Shown piece after piece: positions 49,676-53,301 of a stretch of 64,000 bases of DNA. How positions within the stretch are numbered: position 1 is the first letter of the stretch; each line of letters opens with the position of its first letter. Source of the stretch: Desulfomonilia bacterium (lineage in GTDB: Bacteria; Desulfobacterota; Desulfomonilia; UBA1062); the NCBI GenBank assembly GCA_963664325.2, contig CAXXDQ010000003.1, positions 128,001 to 192,000 on the forward strand. Direction: 5' to 3'. The notes under the pieces are model-generated. The model made no database searches. It had not been told where the DNA came from and worked only from the letters and a program-made list of their open reading frames with translations. The translations under genes were made by a program, and so were the position numbers.

Positions 49676-49771
49676 TTAGAACTGCACCCAATGCCCGAGG
49701 AAGAAGAAGAATATTATTGCTATGACATGAAGAACCCACCAGTTGGGGGTCAGCCATTTAAATCTGTTCAT
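49676..49771 (-). CDS. Unannotated 31-aa single-helix membrane peptide with H-x11-H motif
   Basis: MNRFKWLTPNWWVLHVIAIIFFFFLGHWVQF; ATG overlaps upstream TGA (ATGA), GGAGG RBS; similar to the upstream protein's last helix. Confidence 0.75.
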   Translation of the reverse strand: MNRFKWLTPNWWVLHVIAIIFFFFLGHWVQF

Positions 49772-50271
49772 AATTGCCTCCAGAGCAGATGGCCAAGGGT
49801 ATAAACAGCGCTTATTGCCGCCAGGTGCACAAGCCACCAGCCAATGTTGGGATAACGGTATGTAACGCCTTTTTTCTCCTTGTCCACGGCGTATCCGAAT
49901 GTTTCCAGGTCGAAGAGGGCCTTGCCTATAAAGAAGTTGGTCCAGAGGATCAGATTGTCGGAAAGCAGCGTCTGAACAATTACTGTCGCGAAAGTCGCAG
50001 GCTGCGGCCAGTTTGCAATTGAAAAATGGGTCATCAGGACCGTGCCGATGATGGTCAGCATTCCGTTTAACACATAGCCGTACTGGACCGTTTTCTTTGC
50101 TGAAAAAAGCACGGGGACCACAACGACGCTCAGTATGCCGATAATCAGAGGGATTATGTTAGCGGTATTATTTGATATGGAATGAATTCTCAGGTGCAGC
50201 AGGAATCCCCCCAGGGAAATACTTACAAGTGCGGCGAGCAGGGTCGATTTTGTATAAGTCCTCAGGGTCAT
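49768..50271 (-). CDS. Hypothetical integral membrane protein with His-containing helices
   Basis: About 5 hydrophobic segments; LLHLRIH, MTHF, WWLVHLAAISAVYTLGH; AGGAGG RBS. Confidence 0.8.
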   Translation of the reverse strand: MTLRTYTKSTLLAALVSISLGGFLLHLRIHSISNNTANIIPLIIGILSVVVVPVLFSAKKTVQYGYVLNGMLTIIGTVLMTHFSIANWPQPATFATVIVQTLLSDNLILWTNFFIGKALFDLETFGYAVDKEKKGVTYRYPNIGWWLVHLAAISAVYTLGHLLWRQL

Positions 50272-50286
50272 TTACGCCTCCTTTCA

Positions 50287-50922
50287 TTACTCCGTGAACT
50301 TCACCTCTACGGATTTCACGTCCCAAAGAGGTTCAATCTTATCCATTATTTCCTGAGTGATATTGGCTGCAAACTGGTGATTTGCAGGAAGGTCGATGGT
50401 TACCAGCACCACCCCGTCTTTAATGCTGATGTCATTCACAAGATTCGTTCTCACAAGGTCCAGACCGGACAGGGGATTCATGACTTTTTTCAGGCGCTTT
50501 TTAACCGTCTCTACTGTTGTTGGAACCTTTTCACTAATCTTGCCGTTCAGCTCTTCATAATTCTGAATAGCCGAACGCAGTCCTTCAACGGCCAGAACAG
50601 AACAATGCGCCTTTATCGGCGGCAGCCCGCCCAGGGCATCGGCAGCCTGTTCCCATGTGATCTTTTTGGCCTCTTCAATGGTTTTACCTTTGGCGAGGTC
50701 GGTGATAATGGAGCCAGTAGCGATATTCGAGGCGCAGCCGTATGATTCGAATTTGACATCCTCGATGCGCTTACCGGTCTTGTCAACCTTTATGCTGACC
50801 GAAACCATGTCGCCGCAGGCGGGGCTGCCCTCTATGGCCTTTCCGTCAGGGTTTTCTATCTGCCCCACGTTGTGCGGGTGTTTGAAATGCTCAAGTACTT
50901 TTTCATTATACGGGAACTTCAT
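50287..50922 (-). CDS. iscU: IscU/NifU-N scaffold fused to C-terminal DUF59/MIP18-like domain
   Basis: Y.EKVLEHF..PHN.G, SPACGD, GCAS, LPPIKAHCS; C-terminal V.NP...DLV...LV..I DUF59-like domain. Confidence 0.9.
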   Translation of the reverse strand: MKFPYNEKVLEHFKHPHNVGQIENPDGKAIEGSPACGDMVSVSIKVDKTGKRIEDVKFESYGCASNIATGSIITDLAKGKTIEEAKKITWEQAADALGGLPPIKAHCSVLAVEGLRSAIQNYEELNGKISEKVPTTVETVKKRLKKVMNPLSGLDLVRTNLVNDISIKDGVVLVTIDLPANHQFAANITQEIMDKIEPLWDVKSVEVKFTE

Positions 50923-52097
50923 TTTCTAACCTCCTGACGGGGTTCCTTTCCCAGGGGACTGATCTTGCGCAAATCGCTTACGACTTCAGCAAGGACATCT
51001 GCCAGCCTGTCCACTTCCTGTTTCGTATTAAACCTGCCGAATGTAAAACGTATGGAGCCGTGCGCCTGCTCATGATCCCCGCCGATACCCATGATGACAT
51101 GGCTGGCCTCAAGTGAGCGGCTGAAGCAGGCGGAGCCGGTGCTTACAGCGAACCCGTGCATGTCAAGATGCAGGGTGACGGATTCGCCTTCCACATAGTG
51201 AAGTGTAATATTGGCGTTTTGGGGAAGCCTTTTAACTTTATGTCCATTAAGGCTCACGTCAGGGATTTCGGCCAGCACACGGTTGATTAGATGATCGCGG
51301 AGCTTTATGAAGCCTGCGTTTTCTTCCGGCTTGACAAGCTCCACAGCCTTGGCGAATCCGACAGCCCCGGGAATGTCCTCGAGCCCGGCCCTCAGGTTGA
51401 ATTCCTGGAAACCGCCGTCCATCCACTTTGAAAGAGGAGTTCCCTTCCTGATGTATAATCCCCCGACACCCTTTGGTCCGTGGATTGTATGGGCGGAAAC
51501 CGTTATCATATCCGCAGGAGAGTCGCGCACATCCAGATTAACGCGGGTGAAAGTGTGGGTCGCGTCCGTATGAAAGAGCACATGCTTCTGCCTGCATAAC
51601 CTTGCGATCGCCTCGATATCCTGAATGGTCCCTATTTCCTGGTTTGCGTGCTGTATGGTGACCAGGATTGTCTTGTCGGTGATGGCCTGGGAGAGCTCGT
51701 TGAGGTCGATAAGCCCGTCTTTACCTGCGCCGAGGTAGGTCGCCTTAAACCCCTGTTTCTCGAGCGCCTTCACACTGTTGAGAACAGGGAAATCTTCTAT
51801 CTTCGTTGTGATTATATGGCTCCCTTTCTTTGATTCCGGTCCCGACGCAATCCCCTTGATCGCCATATTGCTTGATTCTGTGGAACCTGACGTAAAGATG
51901 AATTCATCCGCAGCAGCGCCCAGAACACCGGCAATTGATTTTCGCGCTGCTTCCAGGGCCTCCTTGGCTTCTATGCCAAGCGAATACCCAAACTCGGAAG
52001 TGGCGACGGAATATACGTCAAAAAAGTATGGGGTCATGGCCTCGAGCACACGCTCATCAAGCCTTGTGGCTGCCGAGTTATCAAAATAGGATGACAT
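50919..52097 (-). CDS. IscS/NifS-fold protein with degenerate PLP site (Lys to Thr) and intact Cys loop
   Basis: FTSGSTES, SAHTIHGPKG (canonical SAHK), STGSAC, SIRF. Confidence 0.9.
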   Translation of the reverse strand: MSSYFDNSAATRLDERVLEAMTPYFFDVYSVATSEFGYSLGIEAKEALEAARKSIAGVLGAAADEFIFTSGSTESSNMAIKGIASGPESKKGSHIITTKIEDFPVLNSVKALEKQGFKATYLGAGKDGLIDLNELSQAITDKTILVTIQHANQEIGTIQDIEAIARLCRQKHVLFHTDATHTFTRVNLDVRDSPADMITVSAHTIHGPKGVGGLYIRKGTPLSKWMDGGFQEFNLRAGLEDIPGAVGFAKAVELVKPEENAGFIKLRDHLINRVLAEIPDVSLNGHKVKRLPQNANITLHYVEGESVTLHLDMHGFAVSTGSACFSRSLEASHVIMGIGGDHEQAHGSIRFTFGRFNTKQEVDRLADVLAEVVSDLRKISPLGKEPRQEVRK

Positions 52098-52118
52098 GTT
52101 TTCTTCCTTGATAAATGA

Positions 52119-52538
52119 TCAGATGAAAAGGTTGATGGCCGAGTTCCGGGCCTCATCGATATAGGTTCCGACAGCGCCGTATTCATCGATGATACCCTTG
52201 ATCAGGCTTTCCTTCTTTATCCCCATGATATCCATGGTCATCTGGCATGCTATGATCCTGCCCCCCAGTTCCTTGAAATCATCAAGAAGGCGCCTGAGAG
52301 AGGCCATGTTTACCGCCTTCATGCGGCGTTTGATAAGCCATCTGCCAAGCCCGCCGAAATTCATTTTTGAAAGCGGGCCCTTCTCAAGGCCTTTATCAAC
52401 AAGCCTCTCAAGGCCCCAGAATGTAAAATAGATTGTAGCTTCCATTCCCATGGCCAAAGCGCCGTTTGCAATAATAAGCGCGCTGTAAAATTTATCCATA
52501 TCGCCGCTGTGCAGGATGATTGTTGTTTTTTCCGTCAT
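52119..52538 (-). CDS. DsrE2 (DsrE/DsrF/DrsH-like) sulfur carrier
   Basis: HSGDMDK...ALIIANGA, FTFWGL, IACQMTMD.MG, GAVGTY. Confidence 0.9.
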   Translation of the reverse strand: MTEKTTIILHSGDMDKFYSALIIANGALAMGMEATIYFTFWGLERLVDKGLEKGPLSKMNFGGLGRWLIKRRMKAVNMASLRRLLDDFKELGGRIIACQMTMDIMGIKKESLIKGIIDEYGAVGTYIDEARNSAINLFI

Positions 52539-52551
52539 GACACTGCCTCCA

Positions 52552-52773
52552 TCACCTGCGGATCCTGATCTTCCAGACGCCGCCGTCTTCCTCGACATCT
52601 AAAAGCTCCAGACCCAGGGCCTTAACCGCCATCGGTATCTCTTTTTTCGATGCCGGGTGTGTTCCGACAGCCTCTATAATATCTCCCGGAGAGGCCTTGC
52701 GCAGCGCTTTGCGTACCTCGACAAGCGGTACTGGACAGGTCTCGCCCTGTACGTCAACTTTAATTTCCGCCAT
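52552..52773 (-). CDS. tusA: TusA/SirA family sulfur carrier
   Basis: VDVQGETCPVP (CPxP), 73 aa. Confidence 0.9.
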   Translation of the reverse strand: MAEIKVDVQGETCPVPLVEVRKALRKASPGDIIEAVGTHPASKKEIPMAVKALGLELLDVEEDGGVWKIRIRR

Positions 52774-52833
52774 GCTACACCTCACTTTCTCGGGGCTATA
52801 CTGCTATGGATCACTGTTCAGGCAGTATTGCGG

Positions 52834-53301
52834 TTAGTTTATCTGTTCAGCCAGATAGTTCTCTTTACCGACCTGCTCTATCTGCCCCAGTTCCATTTCT
52901 ATGACATCTATGTGGCCCTCTTCGTCTTTGAGTATCGACGCAAACAACTCCCTGCTCCCGTTGTCGCCGACTTCCATGGCGAGTTTTATTGCCTCGTTGT
53001 ATCCCTTCAGGGCGACAATCTCGGATGCCAGGTCGTTGTTGTGCTGGGACTCAACGCCGGCGCCGATATTGATCTTATTCAAATGACTTAAAATCGGCGT
53101 GCCTTCCAGGAATAGGATCCTCTCTATAAGCCTTTCCGCATGCTTCATCTCATCAATGGCACGCTGCCGGTTGATTTTATGGAGTTTTTCATAGCCCCAG
53201 TTGTCGCACATCTCGGCATGAACCATGTACTGGCTGATGGCGGTTAGTTCATCGGCAAGCAGGCTGTTCAGTTTATCGATGATCTTGTCATTTCCCTTCA
53301 T
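52834..53301 (-). CDS. bfr: Bacterioferritin
   Basis: MKG...LN.LLADELTAISQYMVH, DEMKHA..LIERILFLEG.P, DEEGH. Confidence 0.95.
   Translation of the reverse strand: MKGNDKIIDKLNSLLADELTAISQYMVHAEMCDNWGYEKLHKINRQRAIDEMKHAERLIERILFLEGTPILSHLNKINIGAGVESQHNNDLASEIVALKGYNEAIKLAMEVGDNGSRELFASILKDEEGHIDVIEMELGQIEQVGKENYLAEQIN

What the first reader, a model, noticed from the sequence alone, without database searches (positions are those of the whole stretch)
49676..53301. Fe-S/sulfur-relay operon built around a probably PLP-less IscS homolog: bfr-tusA-dsrE2-iscS*-iscU/DUF59-membrane protein-micropeptide
Seen: seven closely packed minus-strand genes. The IscS homolog differs at nearly every PLP/substrate contact known from E. 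coli IscS: SAHK to SAHT (Schiff-base Lys, codon ACA at 51486-51488), EH to ED (PLP-stacking His), DAxQ to DATH, NNE to NQE, RxGT to RAGL, and no GNPSS motif. It keeps the catalytic-loop cysteine (STGSAC), and the partner IscU keeps all three Cys, the Asp and LPPIK. Established: Archaeoglobus fulgidus IscS lacks the PLP lysine, has no desulfurase activity and donates a Cys ligand to the cluster on IscU; TusA and DsrE2 carry persulfide/thiosulfonate sulfur. Inference: a cysteine-independent Fe-S assembly or repair system in which sulfur arrives via TusA/DsrE2, iron via Bfr, and possibly electrons via a His-rich membrane module. I do not know this combination as a described system.
Basis: partly seen in the sequence, partly recalled or inferred. 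Interest (0 to 1): 0.88.

Follow-up and report, generated by a model that had tools for sequence, protein, structure and literature searches.

The report
Lysine-less IscS sulfur-relay Fe-S cassette
This is an intact copy of a rare but very strongly conserved four-gene cassette of strict anaerobes, in which an IscS-like protein that cannot bind its usual cofactor sits with two sulfur-carrier proteins and an iron-sulfur scaffold, probably to build iron-sulfur clusters without using cysteine.

Summary
Seven tightly packed minus-strand genes are present, and the IscS homolog (IscS*) has Thr (ACA, 51486-51488) in place of the PLP lysine, plus the other listed substitutions.

It is neither a decaying copy nor an error. 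All 120 nearest homologs (70-92% identity) lack the lysine and keep the catalytic-loop Cys.

Only four genes form the conserved unit: tusA, a dsrE2-like gene, iscS* and iscU fused to DUF59. They lie in that compact order in 69 of 80 genome loci, from Dehalococcoidia, Syntrophales, Thermodesulfovibrionales, Atribacterota and several methanogen lineages. The cassette is rare and patchy: 0 of 3 congeners and 1 of 400 phylum genomes sampled.

bfr is a local addition. The membrane gene and micropeptide form a separate conserved two-gene module, joined to the cassette only in this lineage.

The family matches M. acetivorans IscS1/IscU1, noted in 2020 as lysine-less and never characterised. I found no paper linking it to TusA/DsrE2.

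The best reading is an accessory Fe-S assembly module fed by persulfide or sulfide rather than cysteine. This is inferred, not shown. All six Methanofastidiosa genomes examined have IscS* as their only IscS-type gene.

The parts
52834..53301 (-). bfr, bacterioferritin (155 aa). A local addition, not part of the conserved cassette.
   Evidence: TIGR00754 scores 166.7 bits, above its 125.55 cut-off; PF00210 also matches. There is a Shine-Dalgarno sequence before the ATG at 53301. A relative was found in only 2 of 80 cassette loci, at 28% identity.
52552..52773 (-). tusA-family sulfur carrier (73 aa) with the CPxP cysteine.
   Evidence: PF01206, 76.7 bits. It falls below the NCBIfam TusA and YedF equivalog cut-offs. 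Cys13 is invariant in 49 of 49 cassette homologs, with 77% mean column identity.
52119..52538 (-). dsrE2-like (PF13686) soluble DsrE-family protein (139 aa) with one invariant cysteine.
   Evidence: PF13686, 129.9 bits. The NCBIfam DsrE2 equivalog scores 69.3 bits, below its 210 cut-off. The nearest solved structures are 3pnx and 2qs7. Cys98 is invariant in 49 of 49 homologs. It is the only PF13686 gene in the genome.
50919..52097 (-). iscS* (392 aa): an IscS/NifS-fold protein without the PLP lysine, with the catalytic-loop Cys324 kept.
   Evidence: PF00266, 228.8 bits. It scores below the NifS and IscS equivalog cut-offs. The best solved match is A. fulgidus IscS2, 4eb5, E 3.4e-101. Among 120 homologs, D102, Q153 and C324 are invariant (120 of 120), H181 is in 118 and T204 in 119.
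51486..51488 (-). Codon ACA (Thr204) at the position of the PLP Schiff-base lysine.
   Evidence: Contigs from three runs of one sample show no variant here.
50287..50922 (-). iscU scaffold domain fused to a C-terminal DUF59 domain (211 aa).
   Evidence: PF01592, 140.8 bits, and PF01883, 49.8 bits. The best solved match is A. fulgidus IscU, 4eb5_C. C36, C63 and C107 are 96-100% conserved. The fusion is present in 72 of 76 loci with an iscU hit; the other 4 are cut by contig ends. Its start overlaps the iscS* stop by ATGA.
49768..50271 (-). Membrane protein of an uncharacterised family (167 aa; six helices in the model, about five of them membrane-spanning by length). First gene of a separate two-gene module.
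   Evidence: No Pfam or NCBIfam match. There are 511 homologs at E <= 0.001; the 120 listed are 59-100% identical. H26 and H30 are invariant; H82, H149, W145, W146 and E123 are nearly invariant. The AlphaFold2 model has pLDDT 89.8. No PDB fold match reaches E <= 0.001. Not found in 0 of 80 cassette loci.
49676..49771 (-). Conserved 31-aa membrane micropeptide, with a WW..H and a GH motif like the last helix of the upstream protein.
   Evidence: Its start overlaps the membrane gene's stop by ATGA. An ORF of the same kind follows the membrane gene in 17 of 19 metagenome loci; the other 2 loci end at the membrane gene. Identity is 52-94%.

Best explanation
The core of the locus is a four-gene cassette: tusA, a dsrE2-like gene, iscS* and iscU fused to DUF59. 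It is inherited and exchanged as a unit among strict anaerobes of both domains.

IscS* keeps the IscS fold and the mobile-loop cysteine. It has lost the Schiff-base lysine and the PLP-stacking histidine, so it cannot abstract sulfur from free cysteine.

Most likely mechanism (inferred, not shown):
1. IscS* docks IscU, as the lysine-less A. fulgidus IscS does, and lends Cys324 to the nascent cluster.
2. Sulfur arrives either as a persulfide, passed from the single conserved cysteines of TusA and the DsrE2-like protein to Cys324 or to IscU, or directly as sulfide.
3. The DUF59 domain helps hand the cluster on.

In this genome it is an accessory third system, acquired horizontally, beside a canonical iscS-iscU pair and a SufB homolog. 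Here it has been joined to a bacterioferritin gene upstream and to an unrelated membrane-protein-plus-micropeptide module downstream.

Its neighbours elsewhere are rubrerythrin-like proteins, superoxide dismutase, heavy-metal ATPases, SmsCB and FdhD. They suggest a role in making or repairing Fe-S clusters under metal or oxidative stress, or when sulfide is plentiful.
For: Shown here:
- Gene content and substitutions.
- The substitutions are fixed across the family. Among 120 homologs at 70-92% identity: D102 120, Q153 120, C324 120, R350 120, H181 118, T204 119.
- Against 7 canonical paralogs, the family-specific changes are H102D, N153Q, Q181H, K204T and Y206H, plus loss of GNPSS.
- Compact order tusA-dsrE2-iscS*-iscU is found in 69 of 80 genome loci, and 3 more are cut only by contig ends.
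- TusA and the DsrE2-like protein are as conserved as IscS* (77% and 81% mean column identity), each with one invariant Cys in 49 of 49.
- The IscU cluster ligands are conserved, and the DUF59 fusion is in 72 of 76 loci.
- IscS* forms one clade with 100 SH-like support, apart from the canonical paralogs.
- In the 50%-identity library the family collapses to one full-length representative (573 bits). The next hits score 426 and 390 bits.
- This genome also has two canonical Lys-bearing IscS/NifS paralogs, a single-domain IscU and a SufB homolog.
- The cassette was found in 0 of 3 congeners, 1 of 24 genomes of the same family (congeners included), 0 of 16 same-class genomes and 1 of 400 genomes sampled from the phylum.
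- In all 6 Methanofastidiosa genomes examined, IscS* is the only IscS-type gene. I identified the next PF00266 hit in one of them as a transaminase; the other five have an equivalent hit of 112-120 bits over the same profile span.
- In a Methanobacteriaceae genome, an ABC ATPase gene (SufC/SmsC-like by position) and a SufB-family gene lie directly upstream, on the same strand.
- Other recurrent neighbours among the 80 loci: rubrerythrin-like in 9 plus 4, HMA P-type ATPase in 11, FdhD in 6 and Fe/Mn SOD in 3.

Established elsewhere (passages read):
- A. fulgidus IscS lacks the lysine and has no desulfurase activity.
- Its Cys ligates the [2Fe-2S] cluster on IscU.
Against: - There is no biochemical or expression evidence of any kind.
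- The cassette coexists with canonical desulfurases in 4 of the first 5 carrier genomes examined and in this genome. It is therefore usually dispensable or specialised.
- 3 of 80 loci (Anaerolineae) carry iscS* with none of the three partner genes within the stretch held, which reached up to 6 kb on each side (less where the contig ended). 4 more have a different gene order, and one lacks tusA.
- IscS* keeps D178, T73, S201, H203 and R350. By recall, these hold the PLP ring nitrogen, the PLP phosphate and the substrate carboxylate in canonical enzymes. A non-covalently bound PLP-like or other ligand is therefore not excluded.
- Heavy-metal ATPase neighbours (11 of 80 loci) could point to metal handling rather than Fe-S assembly.
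- The direction of sulfur flow cannot be read from sequence. In E. coli, by recall, it runs from IscS to TusA.
Confidence: 0.55

Rival explanations
1. The cassette moves sulfur for something other than Fe-S assembly. Candidate targets are sulfuration of Mo/W-bisPGD cofactors through FdhD, thiolation of tRNA or cofactors, or buffering of reactive sulfane sulfur. In this reading the IscU-like domain is a sulfur acceptor, as SufU is, and not a scaffold.
For: - TusA and DsrE-family proteins are general persulfide or thiosulfonate carriers (passages read in PMC11094781).
- FdhD lies beside the cassette in 6 of 80 loci.
- The TusA-like protein scores best against the YedF model, though below its cut-off.
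Against: - IscU keeps all three Cys and the Asp of cluster-binding scaffolds and is always fused to DUF59. PF01883's own Pfam name is 'Iron-sulfur cluster assembly protein'.
- A SufB-family gene, or a second iscS-iscU pair, is adjacent in some loci.
- No MnmA, ThiI, MoaD or SelD-type gene recurs in the 80 loci.
Confidence: 0.2
2. IscS* is still a ligand-binding enzyme or metallochaperone. In this reading the remodelled former PLP pocket binds a metal ion or another small molecule, so IscS* supplies iron (or a different chemistry) and is more than a structural partner. The pocket residues are D102, D178, H181, H203 and H206, with R350 kept.
For: - The replacements are not random losses. D102, Q153 and H206 are invariant, and H181 and T204 nearly so.
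- They differ from the pocket of A. fulgidus IscS, which has H, N, A, N, D and Y at the same positions.
- Other lysine-less lineages carry still other residue sets. This points to selection for a particular pocket in this family.
Against: - No coordinates were available, so the geometry could not be measured.
- The AlphaFold2 model is weak exactly here: pLDDT is below 50 at residues 204-208 and 313-347.
- That these residues face one pocket rests on recalled structures of canonical IscS.
Confidence: 0.15
3. The full seven-gene system of the first reader: Bfr delivers iron, and the membrane protein with its micropeptide delivers electrons, to the IscS*-IscU core as one dedicated machine.
For: - The genes are tightly packed on one strand with no predicted terminator between them.
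- The closest relative's contig (L104) also has iscU-DUF59 directly before the membrane gene and micropeptide.
- Ferritin-like or rubrerythrin-like genes recur near the cassette elsewhere.
- The membrane pair has conserved histidines in its predicted helices.
Against: - The membrane gene and micropeptide are in 0 of 80 cassette loci.
- 18 of 19 metagenome loci carrying that module show no cassette gene.
- The membrane gene is absent from all 24 same-family genomes searched.
- A bfr relative appears in only 2 of 80 loci, at 28% identity.
Confidence: 0.08
4. The gene is a decaying paralog or a sequencing error.
For: None found.
Against: - The frame is intact.
- 119 of 120 homologs share Thr204, and the family is 83% identical per column.
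- The contigs that cover the site agree with the window: the two whole-stretch contigs, and the third, which covers 50641-52465.
Confidence: 0.01

Closest known systems
Archaeoglobus fulgidus IscS2-IscU (PDB 4eb5, 4eb7, 4hvk): an inactive, lysine-less IscS that lends a Cys ligand to the cluster on IscU
   Same: - It is the best solved match for both proteins: IscS E 3.4e-101 and IscU E 2.4e-40.
- It lacks the PLP lysine and keeps the loop cysteine.
- An iscU gene lies next to it.
   Different: - The pocket residues differ. A. fulgidus keeps the stacking His and NNE, and has Ala, Asn, Asp and Tyr where IscS* has His181, His203, Thr204 and His206.
- In a FastTree of 149 cluster representatives, the three with the A. 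fulgidus-like residue pattern (A. fulgidus itself was not in the tree) form a separate lysine-less group.
- The A. fulgidus IscU chain in 4eb5 is 153 residues long, too short to hold the DUF59 domain.
- By recall only, it has no TusA or DsrE2 partner genes.
Methanosarcina acetivorans IscS1 (MA0808) and IscU1 (MA0807), Deere et al. 2020, PMC7585200
   Same: - Same active-site motif, STGSACFS.
- It is described as lacking the essential lysine and the PLP-binding residues.
- IscU1 is 24.2 kDa with LPPIK, which fits the IscU-DUF59 fusion.
[quoted passage not shown]
- A Methanosarcinaceae homolog (L084) is 68% identical to the window's protein and carries the full cassette.
   Different: - It has never been characterised. 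The paper reports that recombinant IscS1 formed inclusion bodies.
- The passages I read do not name the neighbouring genes. Figures S1 and S2 are supplements that I could not open.
- I did not compare the MA0808 sequence directly.
MIS, the minimal iron-sulfur system (MisS-MisU) of Garcia et al. 2022, as summarised in PMC13066941
   Same: A two-gene IscS-like plus IscU-like core, in anaerobes and archaea. No chaperone or ferredoxin gene recurred in the 80 loci (the concept was read).
   Different: - MisS is described as a cysteine desulfurase, and IscS* cannot be one by the canonical mechanism.
- The review names no intermediate sulfurtransferase for MIS, whereas this cassette always carries two candidates.
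- The Garcia et al. paper itself was not held.
E. coli IscS-TusA, and the rhd-tusA-dsrE2 and DsrE3A-TusA sulfur relays of sulfur oxidisers
   Same: TusA-family and DsrE-family single-cysteine carriers are encoded side by side (passages in PMC11094781). Docking of TusA on IscS is known from PDB 3lvj, which is listed.
   Different: - In E. coli an active IscS loads TusA. Here IscS* cannot generate persulfide, so the flow would have to be reversed or come from another source.
- No dsr or shdr genes are linked in the 80 loci.
- The DsrE2-like protein falls well below the DsrE2 equivalog cut-off.

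Membership tests
Group I cysteine desulfurase (IscS/NifS) | Class-V aminotransferase fold | tested here: met
   PF00266, 228.8 bits against a 21.5 cut-off, covering residues 4-365.
Group I cysteine desulfurase (IscS/NifS) | Schiff-base lysine for PLP (the SxHK motif) | tested here: not met
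   Thr204, codon ACA. All 7 canonical paralogs have Lys here. 119 of 120 family members have Thr.
Group I cysteine desulfurase (IscS/NifS) | PLP-stacking His, the Gln of DAxQ, the Asn of NNE, the Thr of RxGT and the GNPSS motif | tested here: not met
   The window has D102, H181, Q153, L239 and a VATSEF stretch instead. The roles of these residues in E. coli IscS are recalled, not tested.
Group I cysteine desulfurase (IscS/NifS) | Catalytic cysteine on the mobile loop (SxGSAC) | tested here: met
   STGSAC with Cys324, present in 120 of 120 homologs.
Group I cysteine desulfurase (IscS/NifS) | Score above the NCBIfam equivalog cut-off | tested here: not met
   NifS TIGR03402 scores 431.2, below 530.75. 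IscS TIGR02006 scores 368.4, below 643.2.
Group I cysteine desulfurase (IscS/NifS) | Cysteine desulfurase activity and PLP absorbance | not testable with these tools
   Needs purified protein.
Lysine-less IscS of the A. fulgidus type | No PLP lysine, loop Cys kept, iscU adjacent | tested here: met
Lysine-less IscS of the A. fulgidus type | Same lineage and same pocket residues | tested here: not met
   The pocket residues differ. It falls in a separate lysine-less group in a FastTree of 149 representatives. That tree used FastTree only, and I did not test the support for the grouping.
Lysine-less IscS of the A. fulgidus type | The loop Cys ligates the [2Fe-2S] cluster on IscU | not testable with these tools
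   Needs a structure or spectroscopy.
M. acetivorans IscS1/IscU1-type pair | STGSACFS motif, no lysine, an IscU of about 24 kDa with LPPIK, and extra clustered genes | tested here: met
   The window sequence matches the values in Table 1 and the text of PMC7585200. The L084 Methanosarcinaceae homolog is 68% identical and has the cassette. I did not compare the MA0808 sequence directly.
MIS (MisS-MisU minimal system) | An IscS-like plus IscU-like pair without HscAB, Fdx or IscA | tested here: met
   No gene clusters of those kinds recur in the 80 loci, which reach up to 6 kb on each side. I did not search Pfam specifically for HscAB, Fdx or IscA.
MIS (MisS-MisU minimal system) | MisS acts as a cysteine desulfurase | tested here: not met
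   The lysine and the stacking His are absent. Activity itself was not assayed.
TusA family | PF01206 domain with the CPxP cysteine | tested here: met
   76.7 bits against a 28.6 cut-off. The Cys is invariant in 49 of 49. The TusA equivalog scores 37.4, below 78.
DsrE2 sulfur carrier | PF13686 domain with a conserved cysteine; NCBIfam DsrE2 equivalog | tested here: inconclusive
   PF13686 scores 129.9 bits and the Cys is invariant in 49 of 49. The equivalog NF047629 scores 69.3, below 210. It is a soluble form; its nearest solved relatives are 3pnx and 2qs7.
IscU scaffold | Three Cys, one Asp and LPPxK | tested here: met
   C36, D38, C63, C107 and LPPIK. PF01592 scores 140.8 bits. The equivalog cut-offs are not reached (150.8 below 187.9).
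Bacterioferritin | Score above the TIGR00754 equivalog cut-off | tested here: met
   166.7 bits, above 125.55.

The most novel reading that the evidence does not exclude
The four-gene cassette is a self-contained, horizontally spread, cysteine-independent route of Fe-S cluster assembly. Persulfide sulfur carried by TusA and the DsrE2-like protein, or sulfide itself, reaches IscU through Cys324 of a pseudo-desulfurase. The remodelled former PLP pocket of that protein (D102, D178, H181, H203, H206) has become a new ligand site, perhaps for iron. This would amount to a distinct variant of the minimal MIS system, with its own sulfur supply and possibly its own iron donor.
Probability: 0.3. Interest if true: 0.85.

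Novelty: new variant of a known kind. Interest (0 to 1): 0.62.

Why it matters

This cassette pairs a lysine-less IscS with two dedicated sulfur carriers and a scaffold fused to DUF59. It is about 70% identical between bacteria and archaea. In all six Methanofastidiosa genomes examined it supplies the only IscS-type gene.

It therefore gives a compact, clonable four-protein system for testing persulfide- or sulfide-fed cluster assembly. A genetically tractable host, M. acetivorans, appears to carry it as isc1.

It also shows that loss of the PLP lysine in IscS homologs is recurrent, in 18 of the 150 nearest cluster representatives. In this family the loss comes with a fixed new set of pocket residues.

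Tried and rejected
- Complex prediction (IscS* + TusA + DsrE2-like protein, with the DsrE2-like protein as the scored partner): verdict 'no answer'. The score was 0.39, against 0.44 for the control in which IscS* was replaced. I do not use it as evidence either way.
- AlphaFold2 model of IscS* from 59 close homologs: mean pLDDT 67.2, and below 50 around residues 204-208 and 313-347. No coordinates are given out, so I could not measure the pocket geometry. I ran no fold search on this model.
- Sequencing runs: no RNA holder is listed, so there is no evidence on expression. The three contig sets that hold the stretch come from one sample and may be the window's source. The one raw-read run laid nothing.
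- DNA comparison of window 40000-59999 with the three congeners: only scattered matches at 66-72% identity on different contigs. I could not define insertion boundaries. The window has no tRNA gene.
- Plasmids: 0 of 186 matching records reach 60% identity, so PLSDB holds no plasmid-borne copy.
- My first bfr query was in the wrong frame by my own coordinate error. I repeated it correctly.
- PDB fold search with the membrane protein model: 0 matches at E <= 0.001.
- The Atlas search returned only unnamed 165-aa clusters from Thermodesulfobacteriota.
- Literature:
  - (IscS + TusA + DsrE2 + IscU): 0 papers.
  - 1 paper, unrelated to this cassette by its title and abstract.
  - 3, 1 and 3 papers. 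I read passages of one (PMC11094781); the others look unrelated by title and abstract.
  - (MA0808 and related tags): only PMC7585200 was relevant.
  - One search gave nothing on this cassette, and one search was uninformative.
  - Garcia et al. 2022 is not held.
  - Supplements are closed. Figures S1 and S2 of PMC7585200 may name the four neighbouring genes and show the IscS1 alignment.
- Selenium metabolism (the TusA-like protein's best NCBIfam model is YedF): rejected. No SelD or YedE-type gene cluster recurs in the 80 loci, and the YedF score is below its cut-off.
I did not use the look-up of encoding contigs, which is closed.

Full report
**What is there**

Window 49676-53301 holds seven minus-strand ORFs. 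Pfam and NCBIfam identify them as follows:
- A bacterioferritin (52834-53301; TIGR00754, 166.7 bits, above its cut-off).
- A TusA-family protein (52552-52773).
- A PF13686 DsrE2-like protein (52119-52538).
- A class-V aminotransferase of the IscS/NifS kind, called IscS* here (50919-52097).
- An IscU N-domain fused to DUF59 (50287-50922).
- A 167-aa membrane protein (49768-50271) and a 31-aa ORF (49676-49771), neither with a family match.

The junctions look like an operon. iscS*/iscU and membrane/micropeptide each overlap by ATGA. The other gaps are 13-60 nt with Shine-Dalgarno-like sequences. The simple scan predicts no terminator between the genes on the minus strand.

**The substitutions**

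Residue 204 is Thr, codon ACA at 51486-51488. I aligned IscS* with a lysine-bearing solved desulfurase (9wep) and with seven canonical paralogs taken from this genome and from related loci.
- D102 for the stacking His
- Q153 for Asn
- H181 for Gln
- T204 for Lys
- L239 for Thr
- a VATSEF stretch in place of GNPSS

It adds Y206H. The loop motif STGSAC with Cys324 is intact, as are D178, H203 and R350. The roles of these positions in E. coli IscS are recalled from memory, not tested here. IscS* scores below the NifS and IscS equivalog cut-offs.

**Not decay, not an error**

The protein search returned 7955 proteins at E <= 1e-30. The 120 best are 70-92% identical to the window's protein. Among them D102, Q153, C324 and R350 are present in 120 of 120, H181 in 118 and T204 in 119, the exception being Ile. 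A 59-sequence alignment has 83% mean column identity. Contigs from three runs of one sample are identical to the window over the parts they cover, but that sample may be the window's source.

**The conserved unit has four genes**

A scan of one genome per prokaryote species found 497 candidate loci, and I examined the best 80. They come from Dehalococcoidia, Anaerolineae, Syntrophales, Thermodesulfovibrionales, Atribacterota, Calditrichales, Methanofastidiosa, Methanobacteriaceae, Methanosarcinaceae and Altiarchaeales. The breakdown is:
- 69 of 80 have tusA, dsrE2-like, iscS* and iscU-DUF59 in that compact order on one strand.
- 3 more are cut only by contig ends.
- 4 Anaerolineae loci have the order iscS*-iscU-tusA(-dsrE2).
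- 1 locus lacks a tusA hit.
- 3 Anaerolineae loci have iscS* alone.

The IscU hit includes the DUF59 part in 72 of 76 loci; the other 4 are cut by contig ends. Clustering all ORFs of the 80 loci shows no fifth conserved gene. TusA and the DsrE2-like protein are as conserved as IscS*, and each has one invariant cysteine in 49 of 49 sequences.

**The other three genes**

A bfr relative was found in 2 of 80 loci at 28% identity. The membrane protein and the micropeptide were found in none.

The membrane protein belongs to an uncharacterised family with 511 homologs at E <= 0.001. The 120 listed are 59-100% identical, and some are named as Thermodesulfobacteriota or Syntrophobacteria. It was not found in any of the 24 same-family genomes searched.

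In 19 metagenome loci carrying it, a conserved 31-aa ORF follows directly in 17; the other two loci end at the gene. Only the closest relative (L104, 86%) has iscU-DUF59 upstream.

So the membrane gene and micropeptide form a real two-gene module of their own. It has invariant or near-invariant histidines in its predicted helices (H26, H30, H82 and H149, plus two in the peptide) and a repeated WW..H...GH motif. The model is confident (pLDDT 89.8) but matches no solved fold. Its function is unknown.

**Distribution**

The cassette is rare and patchy:
- 0 of 3 congeners, 1 of 24 genomes of the same family (congeners included) and 0 of 16 same-class genomes.
- 1 of 400 genomes sampled from the phylum.
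- 4 of 200 genomes in the class of a Dehalococcoidales carrier.

The IscS* sequences form one clade (100 SH-like support) apart from the canonical paralogs. Phyla are mostly coherent inside it, and the window's copy sits on its own branch at the base (FastTree).

About 70% identity between archaeal and bacterial copies, against about 49% to the canonical paralog in the same genome, points to transfer between domains followed by local inheritance. I infer this; I ran no formal test. No copy was found on plasmids in PLSDB.

**Genomic background**

This genome also has:
- two canonical Lys-bearing IscS/NifS paralogs and a group II-like one
- a single-domain IscU next to one of them
- a SufB homolog

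The cassette is therefore an extra system here. Four of the first five carrier genomes examined likewise have canonical copies.

In contrast, in all six Methanofastidiosa genomes examined the cassette's IscS* is the only IscS-type gene. I identified the next PF00266 hit in one of them as a transaminase; the other five have an equivalent hit of 112-120 bits over the same profile span. These are metagenome-assembled genomes, so absence is not proven.

**Neighbours elsewhere**

Recurrent but variable neighbours among the 80 loci:
- HMA-type P-type ATPase: 11 loci
- small SHOCT membrane protein: 7
- rubrerythrin-like proteins: 9 plus 4
- Crp-family regulator: 8
- FdhD: 6 (in four of these with a second, canonical iscS-iscU pair)
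- Fe/Mn superoxide dismutase: 3
- ferredoxin-thioredoxin-reductase-like protein with a rubredoxin domain: 3

In a Methanobacteriaceae genome an ABC ATPase gene (SufC/SmsC-like by position) and a SufB-family gene lie directly upstream on the same strand. This context fits Fe-S biogenesis and metal or oxidative stress.

**Relation to what is known**

The best solved matches are A. fulgidus IscS2 and its IscU. That IscS lacks the lysine and has no desulfurase activity, and its Cys ligates the cluster on IscU (passages read). The A. fulgidus pocket residues differ from those of IscS*.

Among the 150 nearest representatives of 50%-identity clusters, 18 lack the lysine, with varied residues. A FastTree needs 8 changes of that state, at least 3 of them forced by well-supported branches. 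It puts IscS* in a six-representative lysine-less group, apart from the three representatives with the A. fulgidus-like residue pattern. A. fulgidus itself was not in the tree. The family itself collapses to one full-length representative (573 bits), followed by a gap to 426 and 390 bits.

Deere et al. 2020 (PMC7585200; passages and Table 1 read) describe M. acetivorans IscS1/IscU1 with these features:
- the same STGSACFS motif
- no essential lysine
- a 24.2 kDa IscU with LPPIK
- no characterisation

That is evidently this family. None of my full-text searches found a paper that links it to TusA and DsrE2. Supplements and Garcia et al. 2022 were not available to me.

**Mechanism**

Shown: the fold, the lost PLP residues, the kept loop Cys, the invariant carrier cysteines, the intact scaffold ligands and the fixed gene order.

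Inferred:
- IscS* partners IscU and lends Cys324.
- Sulfur comes by persulfide relay from TusA and the DsrE2-like protein, or as sulfide.
- DUF59 aids delivery of the cluster.
- The module is used when sulfide is plentiful, or under metal or oxidative stress.

Open points:
- the direction of sulfur flow
- whether the fixed D102/H181/H203/H206 pocket binds a metal or another ligand
- whether bfr and the membrane pair contribute in this lineage

**Verdict**

It offers a good experimental handle on cysteine-independent Fe-S assembly.

Noticed in passing
window 49676-50271; loci L104-L122: The 167-aa membrane protein and the 31-aa peptide form a conserved two-gene module of unknown function. The family has 511 homologs, and the peptide ORF is present in 17 of 19 loci. 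Its predicted helices carry invariant or near-invariant His residues, and a WW..H...GH motif is shared by the peptide and the protein's last helix. No solved fold matches it.
   Followed up: yes
L107, L108, L109, L112, L119 (downstream of the membrane module); L084:3989-4531: By eye, a roughly 178-180-aa Cys-rich protein resembles DUF2284. It follows the membrane-micropeptide module in five metagenome loci, and a similar protein follows the cassette in the Methanomethylovorans locus. I did not check it against Pfam.
   Followed up: no
L018, L026, L035 (Dehalococcoidia) and L054 (Altiarchaeales): Here the cassette lies next to FdhD and a second, lysine-bearing iscS-iscU pair. In L054 all of these are on one strand, followed by what looks like a NadA gene.
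   Followed up: partly
L042:2873-7927 (Methanobacteriaceae): An ABC ATPase gene (SufC/SmsC-like by position) and a SufB-family gene lie directly upstream of tusA-dsrE2-iscS*-iscU on the same strand.
   Followed up: partly
P0241-P0390 (representatives): 18 of the 150 nearest IscS/NifS cluster representatives lack the PLP lysine (T, L, D, M, Q, G, S or P instead). All but two fragments that end before that position keep the loop Cys. Loss of the lysine is therefore recurrent in this superfamily.
   Followed up: partly
window 53515-54652 (+): A sensor kinase lies divergent from bfr. It is split into two ORFs in different frames that overlap by 65 nt: a PAS part (53515-53979) and a HisKA_3/HATPase part (53915-54652). 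A LuxR-type response regulator follows (54649-55296). The split could be a frameshift or two real genes.
   Followed up: no
window 45895-49567 (-): Downstream of the cluster, on the same strand, lie a PEP-CTERM protein, a PilZ protein and a cation P-type ATPase that has Cation_ATPase_N and _C domains but no HMA domain. The heavy-metal ATPases beside the cassette in other genomes are of a different subtype.
   Followed up: partly
window 2001-6000: A low-GC stretch (0.34-0.36 against about 0.50 elsewhere) holds a clostripain-family (C11) peptidase gene at 2505-4625. It may be foreign DNA.
   Followed up: no
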